A stretch of 57,327 nt of DNA from a virus (Duplodnaviria > Caudoviricetes), in IMG/VR virus record IMGVR_UViG_3300002145_000154, positions 1 to 57,327 of that record; one strand, given 5' to 3'. Made by a program: the position numbers and the translations under genes. Of the stretch, positions 4,806 through 22,865 are shown piece after piece (the first letter of the stretch is position 1; the number at the start of each line of letters is the position of its first letter). The notes beneath the pieces are model-generated. The model saw nothing but the letters and a program-made list of their open reading frames with translations. It had not been told where the DNA came from and made no database searches.

Positions 4806-5039
4806 TTAGAGGGTCTCTCCTTCTAACGTGTCTCCAGTCAGTTCTATGCCCAACTTCCATGGCTCCAAGGACTTTTCTGGTTCCATGGTCTCTTGTTGTG
4901 GATTGTTCAAGATTTTGATTACTTCCACAGCACGTTTCAGAGCACGCTTCCATCTCATCTGTTGAGGACGAAGGACTTTTTCAATCGTCTCTAACGATTG
5001 GATTGTTTCAGCAACATCAAGCTCAGTTAGATCAGGCAT
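4806..5039 (-). CDS. hypothetical protein
   Basis: 77-aa ORF in the operon. Confidence 0.55.
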   Translation of the reverse strand: MPDLTELDVAETIQSLETIEKVLRPQQMRWKRALKRAVEVIKILNNPQQETMEPEKSLEPWKLGIELTGDTLEGETL

Positions 5040-5055
5040 TCTTCTTCCCCAGAGA

Positions 5056-10354: not shown

Positions 10355-10744
10355 TTACTCTGTCTGCACATCGATGTCGGGAATGATCGTTGTCGGCCTG
10401 AAGAACACACGATAGCGAAACGGGTCCGCCTTAACTGGATCTAGTTGCTCAACGAAATACGACATATTGTCCGACAGTCCAAGATAGTGTTTCTTGTACG
10501 ATTCTGGCCCAACCTTCGCGACGACTTCGAGTCTGTGTTGCGAATTGCTTTTCGTAACCGTCAACCGTCCTTCAATCGTCAGCATGTATTCCCCAGTGAT
10601 CCCGTTATAGAAGATACACCGGCGATTGATCTCGAAGTTGTGTGCCGCCAACGACATGTTTTCCGACACAACATCGGACTCTGCACGGCACCCTACGAAC
10701 ACCAACATCACCACCAACATCACCGTCGTTGTACATTTCTTCAT
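10355..10744 (-). CDS. phage lipoprotein
   Basis: MKK + hydrophobic stretch + lipobox VFVGC; NFEINRRCIFYNGIT...YKKHYLGLSDN..YFVEQ matches a widespread phage lipoprotein family. Confidence 0.75.
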   Translation of the reverse strand: MKKCTTTVMLVVMLVFVGCRAESDVVSENMSLAAHNFEINRRCIFYNGITGEYMLTIEGRLTVTKSNSQHRLEVVAKVGPESYKKHYLGLSDNMSYFVEQLDPVKADPFRYRVFFRPTTIIPDIDVQTE

Positions 10745-10794
10745 TGCTTCTTCCTTTGTCAAAAACACGACTAATCAACACATCACTGAGTTGG

Positions 10795-11185: not shown

Positions 11186-12322
11186 TCAGTCTTTCTTCAA
11201 GTGGTTTTGTTCCCAGTTGGTCTGTCGTCGTTGCAGCCACTCAATACCTGCTTGTCTCCAATCTGGAGCTTCACATGTAGTGCGTAACAAGTTCAGTGCC
11301 ATCGAGTACTGTCTCCGTTTGTGTAGTTCAAACGCATAACACATTGGAGCAGCTACTCTCTGGAGAAACGGTTCTGACCAATTCCGAGTCCAGTCCTCGT
11401 TCGTGACGAATGCTTGGACCTCTCTATCAAAGACCCCTCTATCACAAACAAAGGGTTGTTGCCAAGGAGCGATTTCGTCATAGTTGGTGTCTGTACAAGC
11501 TTCCAACCACTTTTCAGGATGGAAACCAGAGTTAGTGTCCAGGTACACATGGAGATCAGAAGAGATTTGGTGGTATTGACCAACTTCTATTCCTAGACAA
11601 CACGCGATATACTCCTGTAGGAAACTGAAGTGAACAACGTTGGCTCCGAGCATCCCATAGATCGCGTCATTGGATCGATTGAAGACAGTCATGTCAAGAA
11701 CTTTTGGACTGAGTTGCTCTCCAGGTGTTTTGGTTGGGTGGTAAGGTCCAGCGACTAACCCGTCATCAGGGTCTCTGATCGAAAACACCACAGACAAATT
11801 GCAACAAACATCTTTTGATGTGTCCAGTTGTAACAAGTCGTCTTGAACATTCCACATCTGGAGAACAGCTCTTCGAGAGTTTGGGGTTTCTCGAAGATGT
11901 TCAACGAGAAGACATAGTTGGTCAATCCCATTCAGATCTGAATCCACTCGGTCCTCTACACAGTCATCCACTTGGGCATGTCGCCAACGGTATCCGTAGG
12001 CACCGTTGAGAGTTTCCCAGTCGTCGGAGTAGTTTCCGAACGTAGAAACATATTTCAGCAAAGGCTGAAGATCGTTCCGACCAGCAAGCATCCAGAGTGA
12101 TTCGAACAAATGAAAGAACGGATTGCAGTTACGAACTGAATTGAACAACACACGTTCTCTTGGGTGTGTGTATGTCACAATGACTGGTGTGGAGAACTTT
12201 CTTGTTTTTCCGTTCCTTGTGTTCACCTCAACGATTGTTCCATTGGCTAACAGTTCCGGGTCTCGGAGATCGCTAACCAACTGTTCAAAAGCTGTGTTGA
12301 CATTTCGTGTCGTGTAGTGCAT
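11186..12322 (-). CDS. thymidylate-synthase-fold enzyme, probable dUMP hydroxymethyltransferase
   Basis: NPFFHLFESLWML, GAYGYRWR, SRRAVLQMW, catalytic DVCCN, NRSND, GANVVHF (Asn at the dUMP-specificity position), DLHVY. Confidence 0.85.
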   Translation of the reverse strand: MHYTTRNVNTAFEQLVSDLRDPELLANGTIVEVNTRNGKTRKFSTPVIVTYTHPRERVLFNSVRNCNPFFHLFESLWMLAGRNDLQPLLKYVSTFGNYSDDWETLNGAYGYRWRHAQVDDCVEDRVDSDLNGIDQLCLLVEHLRETPNSRRAVLQMWNVQDDLLQLDTSKDVCCNLSVVFSIRDPDDGLVAGPYHPTKTPGEQLSPKVLDMTVFNRSNDAIYGMLGANVVHFSFLQEYIACCLGIEVGQYHQISSDLHVYLDTNSGFHPEKWLEACTDTNYDEIAPWQQPFVCDRGVFDREVQAFVTNEDWTRNWSEPFLQRVAAPMCYAFELHKRRQYSMALNLLRTTCEAPDWRQAGIEWLQRRQTNWEQNHLKKD

Positions 12323-12323
12323 C

Positions 12324-12887
12324 TCACTCTGCTCCTTGTTTTTCTAGAAGGGTTTCCAACTCAGTGATTAAGTGGGTCATCGGGTCCTGAGATTTCAAGT
12401 GTAGGGAATTCCCACGTGTTGGAAACACGATAGAATGCCCTCCTGCCTCTCGGAACTTTTCTACATTATAGTCTCTGTCGTCGATCAAAACCGAACCAGA
12501 ATGAGCCATCAGGTGTTTGTGTGGTGTCAGAACGAATCGATCGAACTGTTTCCCGAAGAAGTTCTGAAGCCACTTGATTTTGCCCGTCCTGGAATCTATC
12601 TGCCATGACGGAGAAGAAGCGATGTACCATTCTTCTGGAAAAAGCGATTCTACAATATCTACGACTTCATGGGCCCACGGCAAAGGTTCTAGATCAGTCC
12701 AGAACTGTTCACCAGCCTCATTAATCGGTCTCCAGAATTGTCCTGGTGTCAGGCCGAGCGGCGTGTTGATGTCCCAACTCCCCGGAGTACGAACTTTTTC
12801 AAGGTCTTCTACTGAAAAACCGTGAAGAATTAAGGCTCCTTGCGTGAAATCAGTGATTACCTCGTCCATATCCAGGAGAATTCTCAT
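12324..12887 (-). CDS. HAD 5'(3')-deoxyribonucleotidase
   Basis: LLDMDEVITDF, FWTDLEPLP, IASSP, GKIKWL, LIDD. Confidence 0.85.
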   Translation of the reverse strand: MRILLDMDEVITDFTQGALILHGFSVEDLEKVRTPGSWDINTPLGLTPGQFWRPINEAGEQFWTDLEPLPWAHEVVDIVESLFPEEWYIASSPSWQIDSRTGKIKWLQNFFGKQFDRFVLTPHKHLMAHSGSVLIDDRDYNVEKFREAGGHSIVFPTRGNSLHLKSQDPMTHLITELETLLEKQGAE

Positions 12888-12904: not shown

Positions 12905-12997
12905 AAAAATCTTGGAAAATTTTCTAGAATAGTCTACGGGGACTATTTACTTTCTACCGATACAAAGTATATTCCGCTCACGGCAATGCGGTTCACT
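12905..12997 (+). promoter_or_regulatory. phage promoter/operator copy 1
   Basis: A/T tracts, AATAG-N10-CTATT dyad (12928-12947), TTTACT-N16-TATATT, downstream GGTTCAC; shared with the 30.3 and 33.1 kb copies. Confidence 0.7.
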
Positions 12998-13024
12998 GAA
13001 ACTTATCTTTCACGGAGCAAAACA

Positions 13025-13270
13025 ATGAAAGTCACTTTCAACAACAACGAATACGTTCGAAGTCATGCCAAGAAACCCCGAGGAGGAGTCCGAGGCAGTT
13101 GGGCGTTCCAGATCGTCGAGATCAACCAATACCAAGGCGAAGGAGAGATACATTTCAGTCCTTCAATGACCTTGGCCGAAGCAAAGAAGTGGGTGATGAG
13201 TCTTGTCAGGGAGGAAGCAATCCAACTTGTCCCAGCTGCTGATGCTGTTGATGTTGCGATTCTTCCGTAG
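13025..13270 (+). CDS. hypothetical early protein
   Basis: RBS cacggagcaaaacaATG; H.KKPRG..RGSWAF motif; first gene after the promoter. Confidence 0.7.
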   Translation: MKVTFNNNEYVRSHAKKPRGGVRGSWAFQIVEINQYQGEGEIHFSPSMTLAEAKKWVMSLVREEAIQLVPAADAVDVAILP

Positions 13271-13335
13271 TCTCTTGGACCTCTTCAAACCCAGGCTGTT
13301 TCTCCTTCTACCCTATCCTTCCACGGAGCAAACCA

Positions 13336-13809
13336 ATGAGAAATGCAAAGACCGACATTGAAACCCTTATCGCTAAGTATAGCCTGACGGAAGTCATCGC
13401 TTGGGAGCGTGTCCGAGAATTGAGTACTTTCGACGACGAGGGATTTCGTGACGAGTTGCGGGGTTCTTGGACAAACGCGAGTCGCGTTTGGGTGGGTGGT
13501 ATTGGAGCAGGACTCAGCGTTGTGATTTGTGAGTTCTCCGGTTCATGGCCATGGTACAACGTAATCGTCTCAGAAGCTGTTCCAGTTAATACAGCCTGGG
13601 TGAAGATTGAAGACCAAAAACGAGAACCGCTTGGCTACGCAATAACGACAGATTGGAACGGCGAGCGAGCCGGCAGCGGTATCCCTAGGATTCCAGAATC
13701 TCTCCGAGGCTTTATGTACCGGGTCACGACGGGTGGCGATCACAAGATTCTTCCCGAAGATGTCATTTCCTACTTGGTTTCCCGGATTCAATCGAACCCA
13801 AACGGGTGA
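13336..13809 (+). CDS. hypothetical protein
   Basis: RBS cacggagcaaaccaATG, almost identical to that of the previous gene. Confidence 0.65.
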   Translation: MRNAKTDIETLIAKYSLTEVIAWERVRELSTFDDEGFRDELRGSWTNASRVWVGGIGAGLSVVICEFSGSWPWYNVIVSEAVPVNTAWVKIEDQKREPLGYAITTDWNGERAGSGIPRIPESLRGFMYRVTTGGDHKILPEDVISYLVSRIQSNPNG

Positions 13810-13904
13810 TTTTGGGTCGAATTGAAAAATTCCTGAGATTTTGTGTCCTACTGACTAGTCCGGTTTTGTTTTCCAACGTACACTCATACAAGGAGGTACC
13901 AATC

Positions 13905-14096
13905 ATGATTCAAGAGACAATCAAGCGAACGTTCGGTGAACTCATGGTCGGGGATATTGTGATCCTTGAAGACAACACTGAGTTCACCATCCTCTCCGTC
14001 CAAACAAACCGAAGCCGTTGTAAGGCGTTCGGACGAGTAGACGGTGTGACCCGTCTAGTTGAATTCGATGGCTTGGTAACATGCGTTGCCGAGTAG
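13905..14096 (+). CDS. small SH3/KOW-like protein
   Basis: AGGAGG RBS; ELMVGDIV beta-rich 63-aa protein. Confidence 0.6.
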   Translation: MIQETIKRTFGELMVGDIVILEDNTEFTILSVQTNRSRCKAFGRVDGVTRLVEFDGLVTCVAE

Positions 14097-14140
14097 TTTC
14101 CCGGACCATTTCAGGTCCACAATCCCTTGTGTCAGGAGCA

Positions 14141-14596
14141 ATGATGACAACGACGACGACAAAGAAGGCGACGACAAAGAAGGCACCCGTCAAGAAAACC
14201 GCAACAAAGGAAGCTACCCCGACTGCAGCTAAGAAGGAAGTTGCCCCGACTGCAGCTAAGAAGGAAGCAACAAAGAAAGTTCCTGCAAAGGAGCCCAACA
14301 CTCCCCGTAAAGAGAGAGAAGTGGCTGACCAGACAGCTAAAGAAATTCGCTGGACGCAAAAGAAGATTGATCTTTTCGCGGCATTCAAGGCTGCTGGTGC
14401 TGTGTCGGAAGCTACTGCCAAACGAATCGAAGAAATCGCTGAGGCAGGCGGTCTGGCTGTTGCAGCTGCTCGCCATCAAGTCAATCCCAAATTCGATTTG
14501 ACTGTCCAGGAATACATCGGTTCTGCTGTGATCGAGGGAGCACGAGCAACCTGTTACTTCTTGACCAAAAAGGGACAGAGCAAAAAGTTCGACTGA
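14141..14596 (+). CDS. histone H1-like (Lys/Ala/Thr/Pro-rich) DNA-binding protein with possible wHTH
   Basis: TTKKATTKKAPVKK...PTAAKKE repeats; C-terminus ends in YFLTKKG, as in winged helices; AGGAG RBS. Confidence 0.65.
   Translation: MMTTTTTKKATTKKAPVKKTATKEATPTAAKKEVAPTAAKKEATKKVPAKEPNTPRKEREVADQTAKEIRWTQKKIDLFAAFKAAGAVSEATAKRIEEIAEAGGLAVAAARHQVNPKFDLTVQEYIGSAVIEGARATCYFLTKKGQSKKFD
14217..14267 (+). repeat. 27-nt-period coding tandem repeat
   Basis: ccccgactgcagctaagaaggaag at 14217 and 14244. Confidence 0.85.
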
Positions 14597-14623
14597 GCCT
14601 CCTGCTCTGTCCAGAGAAAGTAG

Positions 14624-14658
14624 AACTCGTGGCTCGAAACCGGGTCACGAGTTTTTTC
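14624..14658 (+). terminator. intrinsic terminator between convergent genes
   Basis: aactcgtggctcg-aaac-cgggtcacgagtt followed by a T run. Confidence 0.8.
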
Positions 14659-14662
14659 GTTC

Positions 14663-15034
14663 CTACTTTTCTACGAGCTCGTGGCAAAGAAGGACCACAG
14701 TCACCCAAGGAGCCAGACGGTTGATTTCTGTGGCCTGAACCGGGTCGTCTTCGAAGTGAAGTAGAACCTTGATATCCTCCTCATTTTTCAAACGACTGAA
14801 CACAGTCCCCTTGTGTTGCCCCGAAGTTACACGGCTCCGTCCATTGAACGGTAATGGGTTCAGGTAGAGACGTTCTGGAGAGATGCCTCGACTTCTCAGC
14901 ATATCTTCCGTTTCTTCTCGTTGCTCAAACGACCGCCCCGAAACGATTATGTCGTCCGGTCCAGGGTAGATCCCCTTGTGTCGGGGTCCCATCCATATCA
15001 CTCCGTCGATGTCGTAGGAGTTGACGTAAATCAT
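14663..15034 (-). CDS. minimal HAD phosphatase (candidate inositol-phosphate phosphatase)
   Basis: YDIDGV, VSGRS, HK and HFEDD HAD motifs I-IV; lies downstream of MIPS. Confidence 0.8.
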   Translation of the reverse strand: MIYVNSYDIDGVIWMGPRHKGIYPGPDDIIVSGRSFEQREETEDMLRSRGISPERLYLNPLPFNGRSRVTSGQHKGTVFSRLKNEEDIKVLLHFEDDPVQATEINRLAPWVTVVLLCHELVEK

Positions 15035-15053
15035 CAGATTCTCCGAATGGTTT

Positions 15054-15294
15054 GATGTAAGGACCTGGGTGATCCCAAACGGAACGCTATGCCTGGACTT
15101 AACCCTTATGCCCGCCCGCAGGTAAAACCTCCGTGACGGTCCTTGTAGGGTCCTCAGGTTTGAGTACAGAAACCCCCCAAGGGATGTAAGGAGCCAGGTG
15201 ATCCTGTAAGGAACGCTGTCATCAGGCCGTAAGTTACTCCCTAACCTACGTACAAAACTCCGTAGCGGTCCTCTCAGGTCCTCAGATTGTGAGT
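15054..15294. repeat. two imperfect direct repeats, period 129 nt
   Basis: gatgtaagga..ggtgatcc..ggaacgct...ctccgt..cggtcct..ggtcctcag..tgagt at 15054 and 15183. Confidence 0.8.
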
Positions 15295-16437
15295 CCGTAA
15301 TGAGTCAGTCAGTTCTCGATTCGCTAGAGCCTGACACTCCTTGTAGGCATCTTGAATCATCATCTGCTGGGGAGGTGATTTCTGAGTTGCTGCTGAAGGA
15401 CCTCTGAGAGCACCTACGAGCCCCAACTCCTTCGCGACCTGTAAGTACCTGATCGCATCAATAACAACGCCTGCAGAGTTTGGTGAGTCCTGTACGGAAA
15501 GTTTCGCATCGAACTCGACTTTGGCCCCGCCGAACCCAGTTGCCTCGATACGGAAATGGGCGATTTTGTTGTCACCGAGGTGTGGGATATAGCAGGACGG
15601 TCCCGCATGAATCCCGTCTTCCGGGACCGGAATCCCTCGAATATCATTCTGACTTCGAATCACGTTTTCTTTTGAGATTTTCTTCGAAGAAAGACGTGTC
15701 TGATCGACCATATTAAGAAAGTCAGTGTTTCCTCCGTAATTGGTTTGACAATGGAACTGAACGTGCATGCCTCGGTTGAAGAAAAGTTCTTGTAAAGCCT
15801 GAGACATAACAGAAGCACCGAGTTGAGACCGCATATCATCCCCGATTGCAGGGATGCCGGCTGCTCTAATACGATCTTCCCACACTGGATCAGAAGCAAT
15901 AAACACTGGAATACAATTCACGAACGGAACCCCAGCAATAAGACAACCAGAGATATAGAACTCAGTTGCCTCCTGAGAACCCACAGGAAGATAGTTGAGC
16001 ACAACATCAACCTCATAATCTATGAGGTCGTTAATAAACTTGCTGGAAGACAATTCAGGTCTATTTGAAACCCGAACACTCTGATGAGCTGGGTAGCTTG
16101 CCATGTGAGGAGCCACTCCATCAAGGACTTGCCCCATCTTGACTGGACAAGTACCATCAATCACAAAATTCAAAACATCATCTTCTCTGTAGTCCTGGAA
16201 GAAGCTCTTTGCACAATTCGGTTGTTGGTATATCGCGTCGGCCAAATGTCTCCCAACTTTCCTATCGTCTACATCATAAGCTAGCACAAACTCCAGGTCT
16301 TCTGCTTTGTACCCTCCAATTTCAACAAAACTCAGTCCGTCAGTGCTTTCATTTTCAGTGTAGAGGCCCACTCCTTCTATCAAGGATTTGGCACAGTTAC
16401 CTACCCCAACAACGCAGACACGGATTTTCTTTGACAT
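15274..16437 (-). CDS. ino1: myo-inositol-1-phosphate synthase
   Basis: VGVGNCA Rossmann motif, NYLPVGS, GDDMRSQLGAS, NYGGNTDFLNM, SKKISK, DNK, DSPNSAGVV. Confidence 0.93.
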   Translation of the reverse strand: MSKKIRVCVVGVGNCAKSLIEGVGLYTENESTDGLSFVEIGGYKAEDLEFVLAYDVDDRKVGRHLADAIYQQPNCAKSFFQDYREDDVLNFVIDGTCPVKMGQVLDGVAPHMASYPAHQSVRVSNRPELSSSKFINDLIDYEVDVVLNYLPVGSQEATEFYISGCLIAGVPFVNCIPVFIASDPVWEDRIRAAGIPAIGDDMRSQLGASVMSQALQELFFNRGMHVQFHCQTNYGGNTDFLNMVDQTRLSSKKISKENVIRSQNDIRGIPVPEDGIHAGPSCYIPHLGDNKIAHFRIEATGFGGAKVEFDAKLSVQDSPNSAGVVIDAIRYLQVAKELGLVGALRGPSAATQKSPPQQMMIQDAYKECQALANRELTDSLRTHNLRT

Positions 16438-17282
16438 TCTGCAACCTCCTTCAAGAATCCAGGGGAACTCGTTGTGGTCTTCAGCTTTGTGCTGAAGCGG
16501 CGATTAAAGACTGGCTTTGAGGTCACCTCAAACACAGTACCAGTCTTCTGAGTGTATTGTATACGATCTGTCTGTCTCGAAAGTCTAGGATACTCTTTCT
16601 GGAGTAGATCATAGAACTCTCTCTGTTCCGTAGCCCGATCAAACGACTGAAGACCTCCAGGGAGGGTAGACAGATCAGCTGCCCAACAATACTTCCCGAT
16701 CCGTAAGGTCACGAGTTCTTCCAGTAACAGGTGGGCTGAAGCTACAAATTCTTCATGGTATCCTCTTGTTACTTCTGGAACAAACCAGGACTCTGTACGT
16801 ACGATGTAAGTCGTTTCGAACATTTTATTCACATGAGTCACATCTCTCCAATCTGAATGGAAATACTTGGAGGGGAAACTCAGACCTCCCAGACTGAGTC
16901 CAGCCTCTTCTGTCACAGAGGAAAGGTCTGAAAGAAGTGTGAGACAATCGTCTAACATCTTTCCCTGATCAGACTTGGATGAAACCCGGGAATGATCATA
17001 CCAGTGATGAATGTCGTCGTCCATTTTCCAAACAAACTCAACACCTGAGGACTGGCAATGTTTCTTCATTGCTGACAGAGCATGACCAAGTCCCTGATCG
17101 TTGTGTTTGAGCACTACTAACCGACCCTCTTCCACTCCTGCTTCAAGGTACGAACCAACGTCTTGTGGTTCAACAAACACAGACCAATCCACGTTGGTAT
17201 GTTGTAGTATTTTCGCAGTTTTTTTGATGAAAATTTCTGCCCTTGCTTTAGAAGGAACACAAATTTTGACTAGGCTATTCAT
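16401..17282 (-). CDS. GT-A glycosyltransferase, TET-associated (TAGT)-like
   Basis: ICVPSKARA, VFVEPQD..SY, WKMDDDI, late PGGLQS motif; start reassigned to ATG 17282. Confidence 0.7.
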   Translation of the reverse strand: MNSLVKICVPSKARAEIFIKKTAKILQHTNVDWSVFVEPQDVGSYLEAGVEEGRLVVLKHNDQGLGHALSAMKKHCQSSGVEFVWKMDDDIHHWYDHSRVSSKSDQGKMLDDCLTLLSDLSSVTEEAGLSLGGLSFPSKYFHSDWRDVTHVNKMFETTYIVRTESWFVPEVTRGYHEEFVASAHLLLEELVTLRIGKYCWAADLSTLPGGLQSFDRATEQREFYDLLQKEYPRLSRQTDRIQYTQKTGTVFEVTSKPVFNRRFSTKLKTTTSSPGFLKEVAECQRKSVSALLG

Positions 17283-17967
17283 TGAGGCTCCAACCATAGA
17301 TTCTTGTGTGAAGGTCTTGAAGTTCTTCATCGTTCAAGATGTAATCAGGTAATTCTACGTCTTCATATCTCCTATTAAAGTCCTCGGCTCTATTAACGGC
17401 TTCTGGGAAAGAGGAACCTGACGAAGTCTTCACAGAATCCTCATCCCCTGCCAATTTGAAACTTCTCAGAGCCGATTGAGGGATCCCGGTAACTATTCTG
17501 TCAGACGAGCATAATTGGGTGATAGAAACACCAAACTCCTGAAGAGGAGCGTAGACTACCGAGTTGTCTTCTAGCCACTCTTCGTAGATGATGGAAGTTT
17601 TTCGGTTGTTGATCACTATAGTAGCTCTATCCTTCCATCTTCTAACAAACTTTTCATCTGTGGGAAGGATACCATACCATTTCTTCGCCTTATCATGTCT
17701 TTCAATCATCTTAACTCTAGATGAGTAGACGTTATAGATACTCCGTATGATCTCTAGACCAAGAGAAGCGTTCTTTTCTTCGAACAGTAATAGATTCAAC
17801 CTGTTCGTCTCTGTTCCCCTGAATATTTGAGGTTCAGGTATCTTTAGATTCAAATCATTAAACAGATAACAGTCCCCGGGATATGACCTGGCTATCTGCT
17901 CACAGATCACATGTGCTCCACTCCTTCTAAGGAAAGACAGGGGAATAGTTTTCACCATTTGACACAC
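17275..17967 (-). CDS. sulfotransferase-like (PAPS-binding P-loop fold) protein
   Basis: N-terminal LRRSGAHVI resembles the 5'-PSB loop; IIRS..N..SSR resembles the 3'-PB motif; IIYEEW. Confidence 0.55.
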   Translation of the reverse strand: MCQMVKTIPLSFLRRSGAHVICEQIARSYPGDCYLFNDLNLKIPEPQIFRGTETNRLNLLLFEEKNASLGLEIIRSIYNVYSSRVKMIERHDKAKKWYGILPTDEKFVRRWKDRATIVINNRKTSIIYEEWLEDNSVVYAPLQEFGVSITQLCSSDRIVTGIPQSALRSFKLAGDEDSVKTSSGSSFPEAVNRAEDFNRRYEDVELPDYILNDEELQDLHTRIYGWSLNE

Positions 17968-17970
17968 CTT

Positions 17971-19083
17971 TCATAGATGAGGTATAGATATCCCTTCGTC
18001 TTGGAATAGTTCCTTGACCAGTAATTCGTTCGGGTCAATTCCTAACTGAAGATATGGATTTGGCATATCGTCCTGGAACAGTTCACCCATATGGAACAAC
18101 AACCCAGTTTCACCAAAGACTTTGTTGTGCTGATTTACGTACGTGAGTCCCTTCACAACACTTTCTTGAGTAAGCAGGGCTCTCCTGAACAGGGACCAGT
18201 CTACCTCAGGCCAATGTTCTCGAAAGTAAAGATAACGACTGGTTGCATCACCGCTTGAATGTCCTGGGTATTCTTTCGAATCGTTTGGATTGAACAATCG
18301 TTTGAATTGACACCACACAGACTCCCATTTAAAGACGTCCACTGAGATCCCTGAGTACTCTTCGGCTTTACGCCGATACCTCATGATATCATGTCTCACG
18401 AACTCTAAATCTTCTGGTGTGACCTGGTATCCAGAACCAGTAGCATATTGTTTCCCGAGAAGCTTGTCGTAGTGTCCTTTCAACATACAGTACCCATTCC
18501 AAATCGATTTCATGCTTCCGTCAGAGTTTGGGTTTCTTACAAGAACATTCGGGAAATCGATCTTCAAACCAAGAACATCGTACAGACATTGACAGGCAAT
18601 CCAACTCGTCATCCGACCAAACTTGAAGATTTCACAGACTGAATTGAACAGACTCTCAAAGTTTGTGTGGGGATCTTTGAAGGAAGTGAGTGCTTCAACT
18701 TTCTCTAGGAGAGAAGAATATCCATCGACCCACTTGATCAGAGAACACGTCTGAGCAGCAAAATGACCCTTGTTGTATCGTGCGTCTGTGCCGTACGAAG
18801 TGCGTTTCCAATTCTCAGTGTTCCATCTCTCAACGTCTTGTTCTGTGATCTCTTCGAAGTCTTGAAAGTGCCACCAATAAGCATATGCTTGAGGTGTTCG
18901 GTAGGTCATTCCGAACAAGAATCCAAACCAACATTTTTGTTCTCTGGTCATCTCACTGGTGAGCACACGACAATAGTGAGAATGATCCAAATCGTCAACT
19001 GTCATCCTCCATGTGTAGTATCGTAGGAACAATTCTTCTCTGTTCTTCAGAGACCGCCAATCACGAACTGGTTTGGGCATCAA
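17971..19083 (-). CDS. aGPT-Pplase clade 2 (amino acid:DNA transferase-like)
   Basis: W...LFGMTY, TDARYNKG.F, FGRMTSW, ESVWCQFK, YPG. Confidence 0.75.
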   Translation of the reverse strand: MMPKPVRDWRSLKNREELFLRYYTWRMTVDDLDHSHYCRVLTSEMTREQKCWFGFLFGMTYRTPQAYAYWWHFQDFEEITEQDVERWNTENWKRTSYGTDARYNKGHFAAQTCSLIKWVDGYSSLLEKVEALTSFKDPHTNFESLFNSVCEIFKFGRMTSWIACQCLYDVLGLKIDFPNVLVRNPNSDGSMKSIWNGYCMLKGHYDKLLGKQYATGSGYQVTPEDLEFVRHDIMRYRRKAEEYSGISVDVFKWESVWCQFKRLFNPNDSKEYPGHSSGDATSRYLYFREHWPEVDWSLFRRALLTQESVVKGLTYVNQHNKVFGETGLLFHMGELFQDDMPNPYLQLGIDPNELLVKELFQDEGISIPHL

Positions 19084-19621
19084 ATAGTCCTAGAATTTGG
19101 GCAACTGCTTTCCTATGATCGATGATGACCACTCTCCGGCCGATCTCAGTGATTACCCTGATACTTCTCTCCACATTTTTGAATTTAACGATCACATTTT
19201 TGGGGTCGAGTGGTTTGGTGTTTCCTCTAGCCAATCGACGACTCTCAACTCGCTTAATACACTTTTCCAAAGGAGTGTCCAAGAATGCGAACACCATTTC
19301 GTCCCCAAAGACTTCACTTGCTCTGCCAATGGTACCATAGGAAGAACTGACGAGAGCTCCCTCGAATAACACATGACCTTCCTGAGCATATGCAGCGATC
19401 CGAGGCCAAATCAGGGCATAAGGCTGAATACTGTCACACCCTCCGCATTTGGTCTTGTAGGCTCCTACAATGAAGAGAGGCTTGTCCAACCAAGGAACAC
19501 TTAACTTGTATCCATCAGGCTTCTTTTCTCCAGAAATTTCTTCTTTAGGATATCGTTCCAAGATCGTAGAAACGATCGTAGATTTTCCGCTTCCGTTAGT
19601 TCCTCTAAGAGAAATCAACAT
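19061..19621 (-). CDS. P-loop kinase, probable 5hmdU-DNA kinase
   Basis: LRGTNGSGKST, GAY..KCGGCDSI, LFEG, LDTPLEKC..RV..RR; lies between two aGPT-Pplases. Confidence 0.75.
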   Translation of the reverse strand: MLISLRGTNGSGKSTIVSTILERYPKEEISGEKKPDGYKLSVPWLDKPLFIVGAYKTKCGGCDSIQPYALIWPRIAAYAQEGHVLFEGALVSSSYGTIGRASEVFGDEMVFAFLDTPLEKCIKRVESRRLARGNTKPLDPKNVIVKFKNVERSIRVITEIGRRVVIIDHRKAVAQILGLFDAQTSS

Positions 19622-19622
19622 T

Positions 19623-20465
19623 TCAAACTCCTGCGAATCGTTGTTTCGGCCGACCTTCTCCGTTCAATGTCCGGAGGTACTTATCTGTTTCACAAAGACA
19701 ATTCTGAACATCGATAGCTTCTGGGAGTTGGAGCCAATTCCTTGAAGATCGAACTCGATCAATCAGCTTCGCAAGTTCCTTCTGAAATTCTCCCTTAGAT
19801 ATGGGAGCCCCTAATTTTCTCCCAAGAATTCTGTTCATGCCTCTCTTGGACCCTGGTCCCATCGGAGCCCATTCATCCTTGTCTGGCCACTCGACATCTA
19901 CTGTCCATCTGAGATCAGCAACGACTTGTCCTGCGATGAACGAACTGAATCCCGCATAGGGTAACAGATTCTCCCAAGTGGTTTTCATCGAAGAGCGATC
20001 GATGAGTTTGCTTCGATCAGCATGGATCGGTGTGACAACTTTGTGGACCACTTGTTCGATCTTAGTTCCTCCAAGAGTTCCAGTGATCATGTAAGCAGCT
20101 GCGAAGTTTTTCAATCCATTGACTACTCTCTTGTCCAGGATTTTCTGGACAGCTGCTGGACTCCACTTCTTTGGGAACCCAACGTCAGCAAGAGACTCTG
20201 TGTTGTTCAGTTGTCTCGCCAGTGTTACTGCTGTTGGCATGTTTGCATGGTCGAAGTTTGGCTGGTACCAGTTCTCTAACAACCATTGACTGACCCGATC
20301 ATTTATCCTCAGAACGTTACAGAACTTGAACTTCATAAGGATTTCGTCGTCTGTCCAGGGTTTCGAAACAGCATTCAGTCTCTTCAAATAGATCTCTTGA
20401 CGTTCTGAAACCCAATAGTCGAAAATTTCCAATGGGGTCAGTTTCTTGACTTCGGCGATCTTCAT
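19623..20465 (-). CDS. aGPT-Pplase clade 1 family DNA-modification protein
   Basis: ERQEIY.KR....PWTDDEIL..FKFCNV.R..DRVS.W, AAYMI, FIAGQVVADL, GPGS.RG, QNCLCETDKY.R. Confidence 0.85.
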   Translation of the reverse strand: MKIAEVKKLTPLEIFDYWVSERQEIYLKRLNAVSKPWTDDEILMKFKFCNVLRINDRVSQWLLENWYQPNFDHANMPTAVTLARQLNNTESLADVGFPKKWSPAAVQKILDKRVVNGLKNFAAAYMITGTLGGTKIEQVVHKVVTPIHADRSKLIDRSSMKTTWENLLPYAGFSSFIAGQVVADLRWTVDVEWPDKDEWAPMGPGSKRGMNRILGRKLGAPISKGEFQKELAKLIDRVRSSRNWLQLPEAIDVQNCLCETDKYLRTLNGEGRPKQRFAGV

Positions 20466-22648
20466 ACAGCACCTGTTGTTGTGAGGTATTTCAACTCTTT
20501 CATACTGATGCTGGTTCCCCAGTTATCAGGATGAATATCGATCCCGACTCTCAGAGGAATTCCAACATTTTGGCCCATGTCTTGCATGATCCGTTGTACC
20601 TCCAGAAGAACAGGTTCATAGTCACAGTCCAGTGGGAAATCAATAACAACTTCGTCGTGGACTTGCATGATCAGTTTCCAGTCATCTTCTAATGTCTCAA
20701 AGTATTCAGAGACCTTGACCATGGCTCTCCAGATAATCCACATGGCCGTTGACTGAATATGGTAGTTCAATGGGATTGTCGGCGAAATCGTGCCATATGG
20801 AGTCCTTGAACAGGCAACTGGATAGCCTTTCTCAGGGTCTACTTCCTTGTCTGGAATTGTCTCTACGATTCCATACGTGTTCGCCATTCTGATGTAGTGA
20901 TCGTTTAAGGCAGCGATTTTGGGCATCTTCTTCTTGAGCTCATTATAGGCTCCCGGAACCCGAAAGGTCGTGTCTGCTTTAGCTTCTTGGCAACCATACT
21001 GGATAGCGAAGCCACCGTTCTTGACCCATTGATAGTAGGTTGCTTTGTACTTGTCCTTGAAAGCTCCCTTAGTTTCGCTGAGAGGCCAGAACTTTTCGGG
21101 ATAGACGATACTAGCGTTGAGAAGGTGGTAAGAACCAAAGTAAGGAGCTTCGTCTGGTTTTTCAAACAGCTCAATCATCACTTGTTCTTGTGATTCGTAA
21201 GCTGGAATCCTGAGCTCCACGTTTTCATAATCCATAGAAGCCCAACAACGACCAGGAGTTGGGCCGAAAGCGTATCTCAGATTGAAGCCATCTTGTTTAG
21301 AGATATTTTGCTCGTTCGGGTTAGAAGAGCTTCCTCTGAGCGTGTTCGTACCAGTAGGATTCAAGGAAGGATGTAATCTGAAGAACTGTTCATGCTCTGT
21401 TGGAACCCAGAACTTTTGATAAGAGTCCATGTAGGAACAAGCAGTGTCTCTTTTTCTCTTATCCTTCAGTGCTCTAACGAAGAGAAGCTCTTTGCTCTTA
21501 GGAGGTAAGACCTCTTCATAGGCTGACATCGCTTCTTTGTCTAATGAGGGGTTTCCTGATTTGGTACGACTGACAATTGGAAGTGGAAGGACTGCTTTAG
21601 TCTTTTCTGAATCAAACAGGAAGTGGAGCAAAGAGTTGTTATTCCCAGATTTCGGGAGGACCAGATCGTAGTTCATCCTCTTGGCTATGCGAACACACCG
21701 ATCTCCTGATTTAACAGATTCCTCCTCGTACTGAGCAGTCAGTTCTGACAGATTAGATTGGTTGACAGTGACGCCCCACTCTTCCATCTGTGGAATCACT
21801 GGTAAGAGTCTGAGACGTTCGTTGTAGATGTCCCAGAGTTGTCTCTCTTCGATCTTTTCAGCAAGGTACCTCCACAACATTACTGTGGCAATAGAATCTG
21901 AATTGGCATAGTCGGAGCAGATCGTCTGATATGGATGTCTTGTTGGCAATCTCTCTGTTCGAGCTACTACTCTCGGAAGCCACATGTCCAGCTTCCAGAC
22001 TTTGGATTTGGCCGAAGGCATACATTCTAGATCAGATTTTGCGAGCACCCAATCCTTAAACAGATATTCCTCTTCATCTTCGATTGTTTTGGTACATCGT
22101 CGTCGAAGCTCCAAAACTACGTCTCGAATTTTGTCTTCGTAGGGTTGTAAGTTGGTTCCAAGATACCGGAGAACCATGCTTGTCAGATCATGCGGTTGAA
22201 CTGAATTAAGCATGTGATCAGCAAACAATGTGTCTACAGTTTTCAACCAATCCCATTCTAGTTCCATTCCATTATCTTGGAAAATGGCTTTCAACATAGA
22301 ATAGTCGAACTTCGTATTCTGTAGTACACAAAGTTCTGCCTGATTAATCTCTTCTTGGATCTCACAGAGGTCCGCTGGGTCAACGATTACACGGCGAGTT
22401 TTCGGATCAACGTCCCATTCCCACCAAGACACTGCACCATCTTGATCAGCAACAGTGACGAGGAACGGTCTAGCTCCGTGATGTAGGTCTACCCCAGTTG
22501 TTTCAGTGTCAATCGAGATCCATCTCTTCGCCGATAGACACAGGTTTCGGAGAACCTTTCCTGATCGGTGATTTGGCTTTGAGGGCAGCTTTCTTCTTGG
22601 AGAATGTTTTCTTTGTAGGACTTGGGTTCGGTGTTTTGGCTTCGGCAT
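20462..22648 (-). CDS. polA: family A DNA polymerase (3'-5' exonuclease + polymerase)
   Basis: IDTETTG, QNTKFD, R.SSSNPN.QNI, DYENVELR, K...FAIQYG, IQSTA, QVHDE; start uncertain. Confidence 0.93.
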   Translation of the reverse strand: MPKPKHRTQVLQRKHSPRRKLPSKPNHRSGKVLRNLCLSAKRWISIDTETTGVDLHHGARPFLVTVADQDGAVSWWEWDVDPKTRRVIVDPADLCEIQEEINQAELCVLQNTKFDYSMLKAIFQDNGMELEWDWLKTVDTLFADHMLNSVQPHDLTSMVLRYLGTNLQPYEDKIRDVVLELRRRCTKTIEDEEEYLFKDWVLAKSDLECMPSAKSKVWKLDMWLPRVVARTERLPTRHPYQTICSDYANSDSIATVMLWRYLAEKIEERQLWDIYNERLRLLPVIPQMEEWGVTVNQSNLSELTAQYEEESVKSGDRCVRIAKRMNYDLVLPKSGNNNSLLHFLFDSEKTKAVLPLPIVSRTKSGNPSLDKEAMSAYEEVLPPKSKELLFVRALKDKRKRDTACSYMDSYQKFWVPTEHEQFFRLHPSLNPTGTNTLRGSSSNPNEQNISKQDGFNLRYAFGPTPGRCWASMDYENVELRIPAYESQEQVMIELFEKPDEAPYFGSYHLLNASIVYPEKFWPLSETKGAFKDKYKATYYQWVKNGGFAIQYGCQEAKADTTFRVPGAYNELKKKMPKIAALNDHYIRMANTYGIVETIPDKEVDPEKGYPVACSRTPYGTISPTIPLNYHIQSTAMWIIWRAMVKVSEYFETLEDDWKLIMQVHDEVVIDFPLDCDYEPVLLEVQRIMQDMGQNVGIPLRVGIDIHPDNWGTSISMKELKYLTTTGAV

Positions 22649-22865
22649 GTTTGCTCGGACACTTACTGTTGTGGCAATTGTCGTAAATGAACCCTCTGTG
22701 AACCATTCCGCAATCTGGACAAGTCCAGACTCTCAATTCTTTTGACAATCCCTTTCCATTACAAGGAACACACCGACTTCCAGAGGATGCAACTCCGGTT
22801 CCACTACAGGCAATACAAGAAGAGACAGGTTTCTCTTCCTTTTTCTTACGAACTGGGGCAGGCAT
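22509..22865 (-). CDS. DnaJ-type Zn-finger protein with basic tail
   Basis: CIACSGTG / CVPCNGKG, CPDCG...CHNSKC, Lys-rich C-terminus. Confidence 0.65.
   Translation of the reverse strand: MPAPVRKKKEEKPVSSCIACSGTGVASSGSRCVPCNGKGLSKELRVWTCPDCGMVHRGFIYDNCHNSKCPSKHAEAKTPNPSPTKKTFSKKKAALKAKSPIRKGSPKPVSIGEEMDLD

What the first reader, a model, noticed from the sequence alone, without database searches (positions are those of the whole stretch)
14663..20465. Candidate inositol-based thymidine hypermodification operon
Seen: directly downstream of the DNA polymerase is a co-oriented run (mostly overlapping or abutting) of aGPT-Pplase1, P-loop kinase, aGPT-Pplase2, sulfotransferase-like protein, TAGT-like glycosyltransferase, myo-inositol-1-phosphate synthase and a HAD phosphatase. 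A dUMP-hydroxymethylase-like gene lies at 11186-12322. Established: in phages ViI, M6 and phiW-14, 5hmdU in DNA is pyrophosphorylated by a kinase and aGPT-Pplases displace the pyrophosphate with a small nucleophile (serine via O; glycine or glutamate via N); neighbouring genes supply or tailor that substituent. Inference: here the neighbours make inositol-1-phosphate and dephosphorylate it. An inositol hydroxyl may be the nucleophile, giving an O-inositolyl thymidine that is then glycosylated and/or sulfated. I know of no described cyclitol-modified DNA base.
Basis: partly seen in the sequence, partly recalled or inferred. Interest (0 to 1): 0.93.

Follow-up and report, generated by a model that had tools for sequence, protein, structure and literature searches.

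The report
Inositol genes inside thymine-hypermodification operon
An uncultured phage keeps a two-gene kit for making inositol, plus a sugar-adding and a sulfate-adding type of enzyme, inside the operon that chemically decorates thymine in its DNA, which points to an inositol-bearing DNA base that nobody has yet shown chemically.

Summary
Downstream of a family-A DNA polymerase lies a minus-strand run: HMUDK_hel (old name aGPT-Pplase1), P-loop 5-hmdU DNA kinase, ADDT (aGPT-Pplase2), a sulfotransferase-fold protein, a TAGT-family glycosyltransferase, a myo-inositol-phosphate synthase (MIPS) and a minimal HAD phosphatase. A dUMP-hydroxymethylase-type gene lies nearby.

- Among 84 MIPS loci, 83 place MIPS beside DNA-base-modification genes: ADDT in 13, HMUDK_hel-family F3 and/or its partner F2 in 68, QueC in 2.
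- Compact cassettes exist, such as TET/JBP-ADDT-MIPS-HAD-P-loop kinase.
- ADDTs at least 46% identical to the window's have MIPS adjacent in 4 of 4 loci. ADDTs at 24-26% identity have it in 0 of 3.
- Cultured Caulobacter phage Cr30 carries the same ADDT-TAGT-MIPS-HAD set.

Best reading (about 0.6): MIPS plus HAD supply inositol, or a glycosyl-inositol, which ADDT installs on 5-phosphomethyl-dU. Glycosylation and sulfation may follow in this phage. The chemistry is unproven.

Five literature searches found nothing in print. This scan has noted the same theme on other DNA (86 notes, at least 67 genomes). The sulfotransferase-like plus TAGT tailoring pair was seen only in this window among the 84 loci.

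The parts
20462..22648 (-). Family-A DNA polymerase with 3'-5' exonuclease domain. It heads the co-oriented run.
   Evidence: PF00476 at 4.4e-32 and PF01612 at 1.7e-05. phrog_17 at 2.7e-60.
19623..20465 (-). HMUDK_hel, the helical partner of the 5-hmdU DNA kinase (old name aGPT-Pplase clade 1).
   Evidence: PF18723 at 2.4e-41, 142 bits. 58% identical to the orthologue in relative L005.
19061..19621 (-). P-loop 5-hmdU DNA kinase.
   Evidence: PF18748 at 9.9e-10, 38.7 bits against a cut-off of 27. 66% identical to L005.
17971..19083 (-). ADDT (aGPT-Pplase clade 2), a group transferase acting on 5-phosphomethyl-dU in DNA. It belongs to the MIPS-linked subclade.
   Evidence: PF18724 at 3.9e-25. 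Cys258 and Glu254 align with the catalytic Cys247 and the metal ligand Glu243 of PaMx11 PUGT (PMC11472151). 46-51% identical to the Cr30, L036, L095 and L096 ADDTs, all of which have MIPS adjacent.
17275..17967 (-). p230, a sulfotransferase-fold P-loop-like protein and candidate tailoring enzyme. The likely start is Met4 (17958), judged from the homologue alignment.
   Evidence: No Pfam, PHROG or NCBIfam hit. AF2 model with an 18-sequence alignment has pLDDT 81.9. Foldseek PDB ranks 1-9 are SULT7A1 chains (E 1.7e-4 to 3.5e-3, TM 0.45-0.49), followed by Teg12, olefin-synthase ST, TPST2 and Stf0. ESM Atlas ranks 7 and 11 are sulfotransferase clusters at 0.96.
16401..17330 (-). TAGT-family (TET-associated) glycosyltransferase with a DDD motif.
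   Evidence: PF20691 at 1.7e-08, 35.1 bits against a cut-off of 27.5. phrog_842 at 2.1e-08. Collinear with weak similarity to Cr30 AGS81007, which hits the same PHROG.
15274..16437 (-). Myo-inositol-3-phosphate synthase (bacterial Ino1 type).
   Evidence: PF01658 at 6.8e-25. phrog_33138 at 2.7e-152. M. tuberculosis Ino1 1gr0 at 9e-77 over residues 2-360. TIGR03450 scores 296 bits, below its equivalog cut-off of 638.
14663..15034 (-). Minimal HAD-superfamily phosphatase (p123). It is the conserved partner of the phage MIPS.
   Evidence: phrog_415 at 5.4e-6. The motifs DIDGV, TGRS, K75 and EDD are invariant in 6 of 6 homologues. The family is present in 73 of 84 MIPS loci.
11186..12322 (-). Thymidylate-synthase homologue of the dUMP hydroxymethylase type (source of 5-hmdU).
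   Evidence: PF00303 at 2e-22 and phrog_5131 at 1.7e-89. 38% identical, E 1e-72, to PaMx11 gp51.
12324..12887 (-). NT5C-type 5' deoxynucleotidase abutting the TS homologue. It probably belongs to nucleotide-pool remodelling.
   Evidence: PF06941 at 1.8e-11. phrog_2643 at 1.5e-12.

Best explanation
The run is a thymidine-hypermodification operon of the 5-hmdU kinase/ADDT type. In it the usual amino-acid tailoring genes are replaced by a cyclitol supply-and-tailoring module.

Proposed steps:
1. The TS homologue makes 5-hmdUMP, which the phage polymerase incorporates (inferred from family).
2. HMUDK_hel plus the P-loop kinase phosphorylate 5-hmdU in DNA to 5-PmdU (mechanism shown for homologues in M6, ViI and PaMx11).
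3. MIPS converts glucose-6-phosphate to inositol-3-phosphate, and the small HAD enzyme removes the phosphate (inferred).
4. The ADDT uses its conserved Cys to form the exocyclic methylene intermediate. It then adds a hydroxyl of inositol, or of a glycosyl-inositol, giving an ether-linked cyclitol on C5-methyl. This parallels the way ViI gp247 adds the serine hydroxyl (inferred).
5. In this phage, the TAGT glycosyltransferase and the sulfotransferase-fold protein then decorate the adduct, or its precursor (weakest step).
For: Families are confirmed.

The operon is tightly packed, with five overlapping or abutting junctions in the run before the MIPS-HAD gap.

None of the eight genes hits the PLP, radical-SAM, FAD-lyase or acetyltransferase families used in known pathways.

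The MIPS+HAD pair is conserved in Moby, Cr30, RP13, L005 and L009.

IMG/VR holds at least 441 relatives of the phage MIPS, of which the best 80 were kept. I examined 84 loci: those 80, the window and 3 cultured phages.
- HAD is present in 73.
- The partner set is ADDT in 13, F2/F3 in 68, QueC in 2 and none in 1 (a contig that ends at MIPS).
- F3 is itself HMUDK_hel family in 13 of 13 members tested.

Minimal cassettes exist: L088 is TET/JBP-HNH-ADDT-MIPS-HAD-Ploopntkinase3, and L052 is TET/JBP-ADDT-MIPS-HAD-x-kinase.

Genes between ADDT and MIPS vary in the manner of tailoring genes: FkbM O-methyltransferase, TAGT-like, GT4, and cytidylyltransferase+cupin.

Reverse test: ADDTs at least 46% identical to the window's have MIPS adjacent in 4 of 4 loci. 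ADDTs at 24-26% identity have it in 0 of 3 loci within 10 kb.

Among the 193 phage records with an ADDT match, 60 rows were listed. Among those, only Cr30 exceeds 25.5% identity (45.9%), and it carries MIPS.

In a 20-row ADDT tree the 13 MIPS-linked rows need one label change (support 76/74), and 0 of 500 shuffles were as low.

The catalytic Cys and Glu are conserved. The positions that hold glycine in PUGT (Trp146, Lys150) are Met and Leu/Ile in 11 of the 13 MIPS-linked ADDTs (PMC11472151 section 14).

An O-nucleophile has precedent in ViI gp247 (PMC8989533 section 16).

RP13, which carries MIPS+HAD among ADDT-like, HMUDK_hel and HMUD2 genes, has heavily modified DNA of unknown nature (passages of PMC13697223 and PMC12686479).
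Against: There is no chemical datum for any MIPS-bearing phage.

Moby-type Stenotrophomonas phages have MIPS+HAD beside FolE/QueC/DpdA/QueE. No ADDT, HMUDK_hel, HMUD1, HMUD2 or TS hit was found in that genome. So the module does not need ADDT.

The HAD family was not found in 11 of 84 loci, at least 7 of which have downstream sequence.

The window ADDT is only 22-24% identical to that of its closest backbone relative L005.

The MIPS scores below the NCBIfam equivalog cut-off. A MIPS homologue that makes a five-membered cyclitol exists (6k96, second PDB hit).

The ADDT clade support is moderate. Only 7 non-MIPS ADDTs, chosen by me, were in the tree; M6, ViI and PhiW-14 themselves were not. Three rows have long branches.

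The 80 loci are those closest to the query MIPS and are not a random sample.

The p230 fold match has TM below 0.5.

No gene for nucleotide activation or PAPS synthesis was seen among the 37 window ORFs scanned.
Confidence: 0.6

Rival explanations
1. Same pathway, different order, as in early mycothiol synthesis (Ino1, MshA, MshA2; recalled from knowledge). Inositol-3-phosphate itself is glycosylated by the GT or is transferred by ADDT. The HAD enzyme then removes the phosphate afterwards, possibly on DNA.
For: The HAD protein's only library hit is the phosphatase part of a polynucleotide kinase PHROG, an enzyme type that acts on DNA ends. GT4 enzymes, the family of MshA and PimA as the papers' tables name them, sit between ADDT and MIPS in L024, L027, L095 and L096. 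TAGT-like GTs do so in the window, Cr30 and L036.
Against: Minimal cassettes (L088, L052, L035) have no GT at all, so glycosylation cannot be obligatory. Nothing tested here distinguishes the order of steps.
Confidence: 0.2
2. The ADDT installs an amino acid or polyamine as in known phages. MIPS+HAD are an unrelated auxiliary metabolic pair (for example a drain on glucose-6-phosphate or an inositol supply for another purpose) that merely travels in the early, nucleotide-metabolism region.
For: All characterised ADDTs use amino acids or putrescine (PMC8989533, Table 1). MIPS+HAD also occurs without ADDT, in Moby and in the F2/F3 loci.
Against: MIPS lies between ADDT and the kinase in compact cassettes on unrelated backbones: a PolA phage, T4-like Cr30 and SP15-like RP13. 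Linkage tracks the ADDT subclade, 4 of 4 against 0 of 3. In 83 of 84 loci the neighbours are base-modification genes. No PLP, rSAM or FAD tailoring genes are present.
Confidence: 0.12
3. The MIPS homologue makes a different cyclitol phosphate or uses another sugar phosphate, as the Ari2-type five-membered cyclitol phosphate synthase does. The appended group would then be a cyclitol but not myo-inositol.
For: The second-best PDB hit is a five-membered-cyclitol-phosphate synthase (6k96, 4.8e-45). The TIGR03450 score is below the equivalog cut-off.
Against: The match to M. tuberculosis Ino1 is much stronger (262 against 157 bits) and nearly full length, with the long conserved blocks retained.
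Confidence: 0.08
4. The TAGT enzyme glucosylates 5-hmdU directly (base-J-like), independently of the ADDT/inositol branch. The phage DNA would then carry two different thymine modifications.
For: The TAGT family is defined by association with TET/JBP oxygenases that create hydroxymethyl acceptors (Pfam name). Phage GTs of such clusters glycosylate hydroxymethylpyrimidines (abstract and passage of bioRxiv 10.1101/2023.12.21.572611).
Against: The GT sits between ADDT and MIPS in the window, Cr30 and L036, in the slot where other loci have an O-methyltransferase or GT4. This fits tailoring of the same adduct. It is not exclusive with the best explanation.
Confidence: 0.15

Closest known systems
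Salmonella phage ViI 5-NeOmdU pathway (5-hmdU DNA kinases gp67/gp243, serine:DNA transferase gp247, PLP decarboxylase gp226; PMC8989533)
   Same: A dUMP-hydroxymethylase-type gene, a 5-hmdU DNA kinase and an ADDT that adds a hydroxyl (O) nucleophile to the C5-methyl of thymine after replication.
   Different: The window ADDT is about 25% identical to ViI-like ADDTs. There is no PLP decarboxylase. MIPS, HAD, TAGT and a sulfotransferase-fold gene stand in its place.
Pseudomonas phage PaMx11/M6 glycine:DNA transferase pathways (PUGT gp46 structure, PMC11472151; PMC8989533)
   Same: Same gene kit (ADDT, P-loop kinase, HMUDK_hel-type gene, TS homologue). The catalytic Cys247 and Glu243 equivalents are conserved.
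   Different: The glycine-contact positions Trp146 and Lys150 are Met and Ile in the window. The FAD lyase, acetyltransferase, rSAM and PLP genes are absent.
Caulobacter phage Cr30 cassette (AGS81014 TET/JBP ... AGS81008 ADDT, AGS81007 TAGT-like, AGS81006 MIPS, AGS81003 HAD; uncharacterised)
   Same: ADDT 46%, MIPS 48% and HAD about 43% identical. The GT belongs to the same PHROG. The gene order ADDT-GT-MIPS-HAD is the same.
   Different: Cr30 is T4-like and has a canonical ThyA (373 bits) and a TET/JBP oxygenase instead of a hydroxymethylase. It has no sulfotransferase-like gene, and its kinase is of another P-loop family.
SP-15 / YerA41 / Carin-5 linker-phosphate-sugar thymidine hypermodifications, and the uncharacterised modification of relative RP13 (PMC12686479, PMC13697223, passages)
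   Same: Bulky carbohydrate-type decoration of thymine. RP13 carries MIPS+HAD among ADDT-like, HMUDK_hel and HMUD2 genes.
   Different: The tblastn search of the 50,697 phage records returned no SP-15, YerA41 or Carin-5 record among its 20 MIPS matches; I did not check that these genomes are in the collection. Their linker is an alkyl diol, not known to be a cyclitol.
Arabinosyl-5-hydroxycytosine pathway of DLP3/RB69 (PMC13326640, Table 1 passages)
   Same: The phage encodes its own supply line for the substituent (sugar-phosphate-forming enzyme plus small HAD-type phosphatase) next to the DNA-modifying transferases.
   Different: There the sugar is re-activated as a nucleotide sugar and added by GT-B enzymes to cytosine. 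Here no nucleotidyltransferase is present, and ADDT is the likely attaching enzyme.
Early mycothiol biosynthesis: Ino1, MshA (GT4), MshA2 phosphatase (recalled from knowledge)
   Same: The same triad of inositol-phosphate synthase, glycosyltransferase and phosphatase, making a glycosyl-inositol.
   Different: It is a cellular small-molecule pathway with no DNA acceptor. The window GT is TAGT family, not GT4.

Membership tests
Thymidine hypermodification system (5-HMUDK + ADDT type) | A source of 5-hmdU (dUMP hydroxymethylase or TET/JBP oxygenase). | tested here: met
   The TS homologue at 11186-12322 hits PF00303 at 2e-22 and is 38% identical to PaMx11 gp51. Hydroxymethylase activity rather than methylase activity is not testable by sequence here.
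Thymidine hypermodification system (5-HMUDK + ADDT type) | A 5-hmdU DNA kinase (P-loop) with its helical partner. | tested here: met
   PF18748 at 38.7 bits (cut-off 27) and PF18723 at 142 bits (cut-off 25).
Thymidine hypermodification system (5-HMUDK + ADDT type) | An ADDT with the catalytic cysteine and the metal-binding glutamate. | tested here: met
   PF18724 at 89.4 bits. Cys258 and Glu254 align with PUGT Cys247 and Glu243. Cys is invariant in 20 of 20 aligned ADDTs and Glu is present in 19 of 20.
Thymidine hypermodification system (5-HMUDK + ADDT type) | Amino-acid tailoring enzymes (PLP decarboxylase, radical-SAM isomerase, FAD lyase, acetyltransferase). | tested here: not met
   None of the eight genes at 14663-22648 hits such a family in Pfam, PHROGs or NCBIfam.
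Thymidine hypermodification system (5-HMUDK + ADDT type) | A modified thymidine in virion DNA. | not testable with these tools
   The phage is uncultured, and no sequencing run was listed for the stretch.
Myo-inositol-3-phosphate synthase (Ino1) | The catalytic domain and a full-length match to a characterised enzyme. | tested here: met
   PF01658 at 87.8 bits (cut-off 27). M. tuberculosis Ino1 1gr0 at 9e-77 over residues 2-360, including the N-terminal GVGNCA dinucleotide-binding stretch.
Myo-inositol-3-phosphate synthase (Ino1) | The equivalog-level score (TIGR03450). | tested here: not met
   296 bits against a cut-off of 638. This is a divergent phage clade, so product identity is inferred.
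HAD-superfamily phosphatase | The four HAD motifs (DxDx[TV], S/T, K, [ED]D). | tested here: met
   DIDGV, TGRS, K75 and EDD are invariant in 6 of 6 homologues.
HAD-superfamily phosphatase | A match to a curated HAD model or a solved HAD structure. | tested here: inconclusive
   There is no Pfam or NCBIfam hit. phrog_415 hits only at 5.4e-6. PDB sequence searches gave nothing or only spurious repeat matches. No structure was predicted.
PAPS-dependent sulfotransferase | The sulfotransferase fold. | tested here: inconclusive
   The model has pLDDT 81.9. Foldseek PDB hits 1-9 are SULT7A1 chains and further hits are sulfotransferases, but TM is 0.45-0.49 and rmsd is 7-9 A. In BFVD, ranks 3, 4, 11 and 12 are sulfotransferases at weak E-values. 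The second-look aligner was not available.
PAPS-dependent sulfotransferase | PAPS-binding motifs (5'-PSB loop, 3'-PB motif; recalled). | tested here: inconclusive
   Family-conserved RRSG-x-H after strand 1 and an R-S-x-Y-N-x-x-A-S-R block fit the recalled patterns. There is no Pfam sulfotransferase hit in 0 of 18 members at E up to 1.
TAGT (TET-associated glycosyltransferase) | The Pfam model above its cut-off, and an acidic DxD-type motif. | tested here: met
   PF20691 at 35.1 bits (cut-off 27.5), covering profile positions 2-120 of 205. The DDD motif at residues 104-106 aligns with DDD in Cr30 AGS81007. Donor and acceptor are untested.

The most novel reading that the evidence does not exclude
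The phage's thymines carry an ether-linked inositol that is further glycosylated and sulfated. That would be the first cyclitol-bearing and the first sulfated DNA base. More broadly, MIPS+HAD would be a portable substituent-supply module that phages plug into at least three different base-modification chassis: ADDT on thymine, the HMUDK_hel-family F3/F2 pair, and QueC/DpdA 7-deazaguanine.
Probability: 0.3. Interest if true: 0.92.

Novelty: new variant of a known kind. Interest (0 to 1): 0.8.

Why it matters
Known thymidine hypermodifications are built from amino acids or polyamines. A cyclitol adduct would add a new chemical class to natural DNA. It would also extend the substrate range of ADDT enzymes to polyols, which is useful for enzymatic DNA labelling. 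It could explain why phages such as RP13 resist sequencing and restriction.

The idea is directly testable because two cultured phages, Cr30 on Caulobacter crescentus CB15 and RP13, carry the same module.

The module is widespread, with at least 441 viral contigs, so it would be a major rather than a marginal form of phage DNA modification.

Tried and rejected
Searches and models that led nowhere:
- Megablast of 14000-22700 against 50,697 phage records found no match.
- Single-protein scans of IMG/VR with the ADDT and with p230 found no relative.
- The AF2 model of p230 with a 3-sequence alignment was unusable, with pLDDT 34. It was redone with 18 sequences.
- The profile of the p230 family against PDB sequences gave only P-loop motif matches to RagC/D at E 1.2.
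- p123 and its profile against PDB sequences gave nothing, or spurious sums over pentatricopeptide repeats.
- The window ADDT and the 9-sequence ADDT profile against PDB sequences gave no true hit, and PaMx11 PUGT was not reached. PaMx11 gp46 was therefore fetched and aligned directly.
- hhalign of F3 against ADDT gave probability 7%, and F2 against the p230 family gave 0.8%. No homology is claimed.
- hhalign of the p123 profile against the L092 HAD-like/QueC protein matched only motif I. The 'fusion' is therefore only a weak lead.
- F3 protein against Moby, Cr30, RP13 and L005 found no match. The window kinase against five records found no match. Both answers state that an empty result shows nothing.
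- No sequencing run was listed for 14663-20465. No RNA holder was listed.

Literature searches that found no paper linking inositol to a phage DNA base. The 'inositol' mentions in PMC13326640 and bioRxiv 10.1101/2023.12.21.572611 are names of structural neighbours only. The two papers holding Cr30, Caulobacter and inositol were seen as listings only and are on other topics.

Supplements of papers are closed. The contig sets behind Figure 2 of PMC8989533 and the tables of the glycosyltransferase and T-dioxygenase papers may hold MIPS-bearing clusters that I could not see.

Considered and rejected: the idea that MIPS adjacency merely reflects a shared 'early gene' region. It is rejected as the main reading because linkage tracks one ADDT subclade and persists on unrelated backbones.

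Full report
What is there. The window is an IMG/VR virus record of 57,327 bases, estimated 80% complete. On the minus strand a family-A DNA polymerase (20462-22648) is followed by seven co-oriented genes. Their junctions are a 4-nt overlap, a 1-nt gap, a 23-nt overlap, a 3-nt gap, a 56-nt overlap and a 37-nt overlap. A 239-nt gap then precedes the last gene, and it holds no ORF of 23 aa or more.

Library scans name five of the seven genes above curated cut-offs:
- HMUDK_hel (PF18723, 2.4e-41)
- the P-loop 5-hmdU DNA kinase (PF18748, 38.7 bits against a cut-off of 27)
- ADDT (PF18724, 3.9e-25)
- TAGT glycosyltransferase (PF20691, 35.1 bits against 27.5)
- the inositol-phosphate synthase domain (PF01658, 6.8e-25; phrog_33138, 2.7e-152)

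The synthase matches M. tuberculosis Ino1 (1gr0) at 9e-77 over nearly its whole length. It stays below the NCBIfam equivalog cut-off, at 296 against 638 bits.

The thymidylate-synthase homologue at 11186-12322 is 38% identical (E 1e-72) to gp51 of PaMx11, a phage with a characterised thymidine hypermodification.

The two weakly labelled genes. The 123-aa protein has no Pfam hit. It matches a polynucleotide-kinase PHROG at 5.4e-6. It keeps the four HAD motifs invariant in all six homologues aligned.

The 230-aa protein has no hit in Pfam, PHROGs or NCBIfam. Its family is small: 16 proteins at E up to 0.001 among 1.84 billion representatives. A model built on 18 sequences reached pLDDT 81.9. Its best PDB neighbours are PAPS sulfotransferases:
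- SULT7A1 chains at ranks 1-9, with E 1.7e-4 to 3.5e-3
- then Teg12, the olefin-synthase sulfotransferase domain, TPST2 and Stf0

The TM-scores are only 0.45-0.49. BFVD and the ESM Atlas give the same lead weakly. 'Sulfotransferase-fold' is fair. 'Sulfotransferase' is not shown.

Is the inositol gene part of the pathway? In 50,697 phage records the MIPS has 20 matches: 16 Stenotrophomonas (Menderavirus) records, Cr30 (2 records), RP13 and one weak fragment. The MIPS and the 123-aa HAD travel together in Moby, Cr30, RP13 and the metagenomic loci L005 and L009.

Cr30, a T4-like phage, has this gene order:
- a TET/JBP oxygenase (8.4e-21)
- a few genes on, an ADDT 46% identical to the window's
- a GT of the same PHROG as the window's TAGT
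- MIPS
- two small genes
- the HAD
- a P-loop protein

Among the 60 listed rows of the 193 phage records with an ADDT match, Cr30 is the only one above 25.5% identity.

RP13 has an ADDT-PHROG protein, HMUDK_hel (1.7e-48), a dNMP kinase, MIPS, the HAD and an HMUD2 kinase within 13 kb. Passages of two papers say its DNA is heavily modified, could not be amplified by commercial polymerases, and that the modification is uncharacterised (PMC13697223, PMC12686479).

The wider census. A profile of seven phage MIPS sequences found at least 441 relatives in IMG/VR, of which the best 80 were kept. I clustered the ORFs of those 80 loci plus the window, Moby, Cr30 and RP13, giving 84 loci.
- The HAD family is present in 73 of 84.
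- The neighbouring set is ADDT in 13, the pair I call F2/F3 in 68, QueC in 2, and nothing in 1 (a contig that ends at MIPS).
- F3 is itself HMUDK_hel family: 13 of 13 members match, best E 1.4e-14 (lead).
- Of the 13 ADDT loci, 7 also have TET/JBP and 8 have a P-loop kinase of family PF18751.

Some cassettes are minimal. L088 reads TET/JBP, HNH, ADDT, MIPS, HAD, kinase. L052 reads TET/JBP, ADDT, MIPS, HAD, one unknown gene, kinase. In these, ADDT is the only enzyme placed to attach whatever MIPS and HAD make.

The slot between ADDT and MIPS varies as a tailoring slot would:
- FkbM-type O-methyltransferase (L005; 42 loci overall)
- TAGT-like GT (window, Cr30, L036)
- GT4 (L024, L027, L095, L096)
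- a cytidylyltransferase-cupin protein (L024)
- the sulfotransferase-fold protein, in the window only

Reverse test and tree. Searching IMG/VR with the three closest ADDTs gave 7 loci. The four with ADDT at least 46% identical (L036, L095, L096 and Cr30's own record) all have MIPS next to it. The three at 24-26% have a kinase, HMUDK_hel or TS but no MIPS within 10 kb.

The tree has 20 ADDTs. Thirteen are MIPS-linked. Seven are not: PaMx11, three Ackermannviridae and L098-L100, chosen by me. The MIPS label needs a single change (support 76/74), and 0 of 500 shuffles were as low. Twelve of the 13 form one group (86/91, not starred). L037, PaMx11 and RP13 sit on long branches, and the root is the midpoint only. 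M6, ViI and PhiW-14 themselves were not included.

Mechanism. From PMC8989533 (sections 16 and 21 read):
- The kinase makes 5-phosphomethyl-dU.
- The monophosphate is competent for the next step.
- Clade-2 enzymes then add glycine (N), serine (O) or putrescine.

From PMC11472151 (passages):
- PUGT uses Cys247 to attack C6, expels phosphate and lets the nucleophile add to the exocyclic methylene.
- Glu243 binds the metal.
- Glycine is held by Asp24, Trp146 and Lys150.

In my alignments Cys247 is invariant in 20 of 20 ADDTs and Glu243 is kept in 19 of 20, both including the window (Cys258, Glu254). Positions 146 and 150 are Met and Leu/Ile in 11 of the 13 MIPS-linked proteins, Leu and Asn in the ViI-like proteins, and Trp and Lys in PaMx11. 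This fits a changed substrate pocket. However, the alignment is at 12-21% identity, and one non-MIPS ADDT also has Ile at 150.

The proposed steps are given under the best explanation. Steps 1 and 2 rest on homology to tested enzymes. The inositol transfer, the order of dephosphorylation, glycosylation and sulfation are all inference.

Evidence against, and limits.
- No chemistry exists for any of these phages.
- Moby-type phages carry MIPS+HAD between FolE and QueC/DpdA/QueE. They gave no hit for ADDT, HMUDK_hel, HMUD1, HMUD2 or TS. Those searches state that silence is not absence.
- The HAD family is missing from 11 loci, at least 7 of which have sequence downstream of MIPS.
- The window's nearest backbone relative L005 shares PolA at 45%, HMUDK_hel at 58%, the kinase at 66% and MIPS at 70%. 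Its ADDT is only 22-24% identical and belongs to another branch of the MIPS-linked group.
- A MIPS homologue that makes a five-membered cyclitol is the second PDB hit.
- The 80 loci are the nearest relatives of the query and are not a random sample.

Comparison with the known. The operon is a member of the 5-HMUDK/ADDT kind of thymidine hypermodification system by every sequence criterion I could test. The exception is the amino-acid tailoring genes, which are absent. It differs in what it most likely appends.

Five full-text searches found no paper that links inositol or MIPS with a phage DNA base. Supplements were closed.

This scan has reported the same theme before on other DNA: 86 notes in at least 67 genomes. 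My results agree with those notes. What this window adds is the pairing of a TAGT glycosyltransferase with a sulfotransferase-fold protein in the tailoring slot.

Verdict. It is a new variant of a known kind, of high interest, and directly testable in Cr30.

Noticed in passing
window 12986-14596 (+ strand): Four small plus-strand ORFs (94, 157, 96 and 171 aa) sit between the two minus-strand blocks. The three scanned (157, 96, 171 aa) have no Pfam hit, and the two scanned in PHROGs (157, 171 aa) have no hit there. The 171-aa and 96-aa ORFs have homologues (49% and 41%) at the same place and in the same opposed orientation in relative L005.
   Followed up: partly
L001 (Stenotrophomonas phage Moby) 8201-13615: In Moby, MIPS and the HAD homologue lie between GTP cyclohydrolase I and QueC/DpdA-type transglycosylase/QueE. 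That is inside a 7-deazaguanine DNA-modification cluster. No ADDT or HMUDK family hit was found in the genome. An inositol link to a deazaguanine base is conceivable but untested.
   Followed up: partly
L092:3600-4769: Directly after MIPS lies a 389-aa protein with a C-terminal QueC domain (3.6e-15). Its N-terminus carries a DFDGT motif and a weak LNS2/HAD-like match (3.1e-4). hhalign to the p123 family matched only motif I, so a HAD-QueC fusion is only a lead.
   Followed up: partly
L006-L009, L019-L093 (68 of 84 loci), e.g. L039:906-5456: The majority architecture is F2-MIPS-HAD-FkbM methyltransferase-F3, or MIPS-HAD-F3-F2-C5 methyltransferase-like with a short TS homologue and dCMP deaminase upstream. 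F3 is HMUDK_hel family. F2 has a GDSHS (SGNH-like) motif and no Pfam hit. F2 and F3 correspond to the two halves of phrog_17781.
   Followed up: partly
Aeromonas phages 44RR2.8t, 31, 25, Aes012 and relatives (hits H81-H129): F3 has relatives in 19 phage records and F2 in 43, almost all of them Aeromonas T4-like phages. In phage 31 one annotated gene lies under both the F2 and the F3 match. No Aeromonas record is among the 20 records with a MIPS match, so F2/F3 also work without the inositol module.
   Followed up: no
L002 (Cr30) 4904-5431 and 14858-15658: Near the Cr30 cassette lie a dATP/dGTP diphosphohydrolase N-terminal domain protein (PF18909, 5.1e-34) and a CBASS inhibitor Acb3 homologue (1.8e-68). 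AGS81014, annotated as an SNF2 repair protein, carries a Tet_JBP oxygenase domain.
   Followed up: no
L024:6762-9377: Between ADDT and MIPS this locus has a cytidylyltransferase-like plus cupin protein, an unscanned 210-aa ORF and a GT4 glycosyltransferase. This hints at a nucleotide-activated intermediate in some variants.
   Followed up: no
P0013 (member of the p230 family, 444 aa): One relative of the sulfotransferase-fold protein is fused to a C-terminal extension that holds a GDSHS motif. One member of the 18-sequence alignment (not identified in the output) gave a weak GDSL-lipase Pfam match (E 0.051), probably this one. F2 shows the same GDSHS motif.
   Followed up: no
window 26352-28062, 8148-9203, 10355-10768: Other nucleotide and repair genes of the phage: a uracil-DNA glycosylase (PF03167, 2.3e-20) overlapping a PD-(D/E)XK nuclease, a 351-aa MazG-domain protein, and a Phage_VG64 family protein (1.2e-46). 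A UDG in a phage presumed to replace T with a 5-hmdU derivative matches what the SP15-like polymerase papers discuss.
   Followed up: no
L017, L018 (G002, G001 TS-like matches): The search reported in-frame stops (2 TGA; 1 TGA and 1 TAA) inside the TS-family match of the F2/F3-type phages. The called ORFs are short (218-226 aa). I did not check whether the match simply runs past the ORF ends.
   Followed up: no
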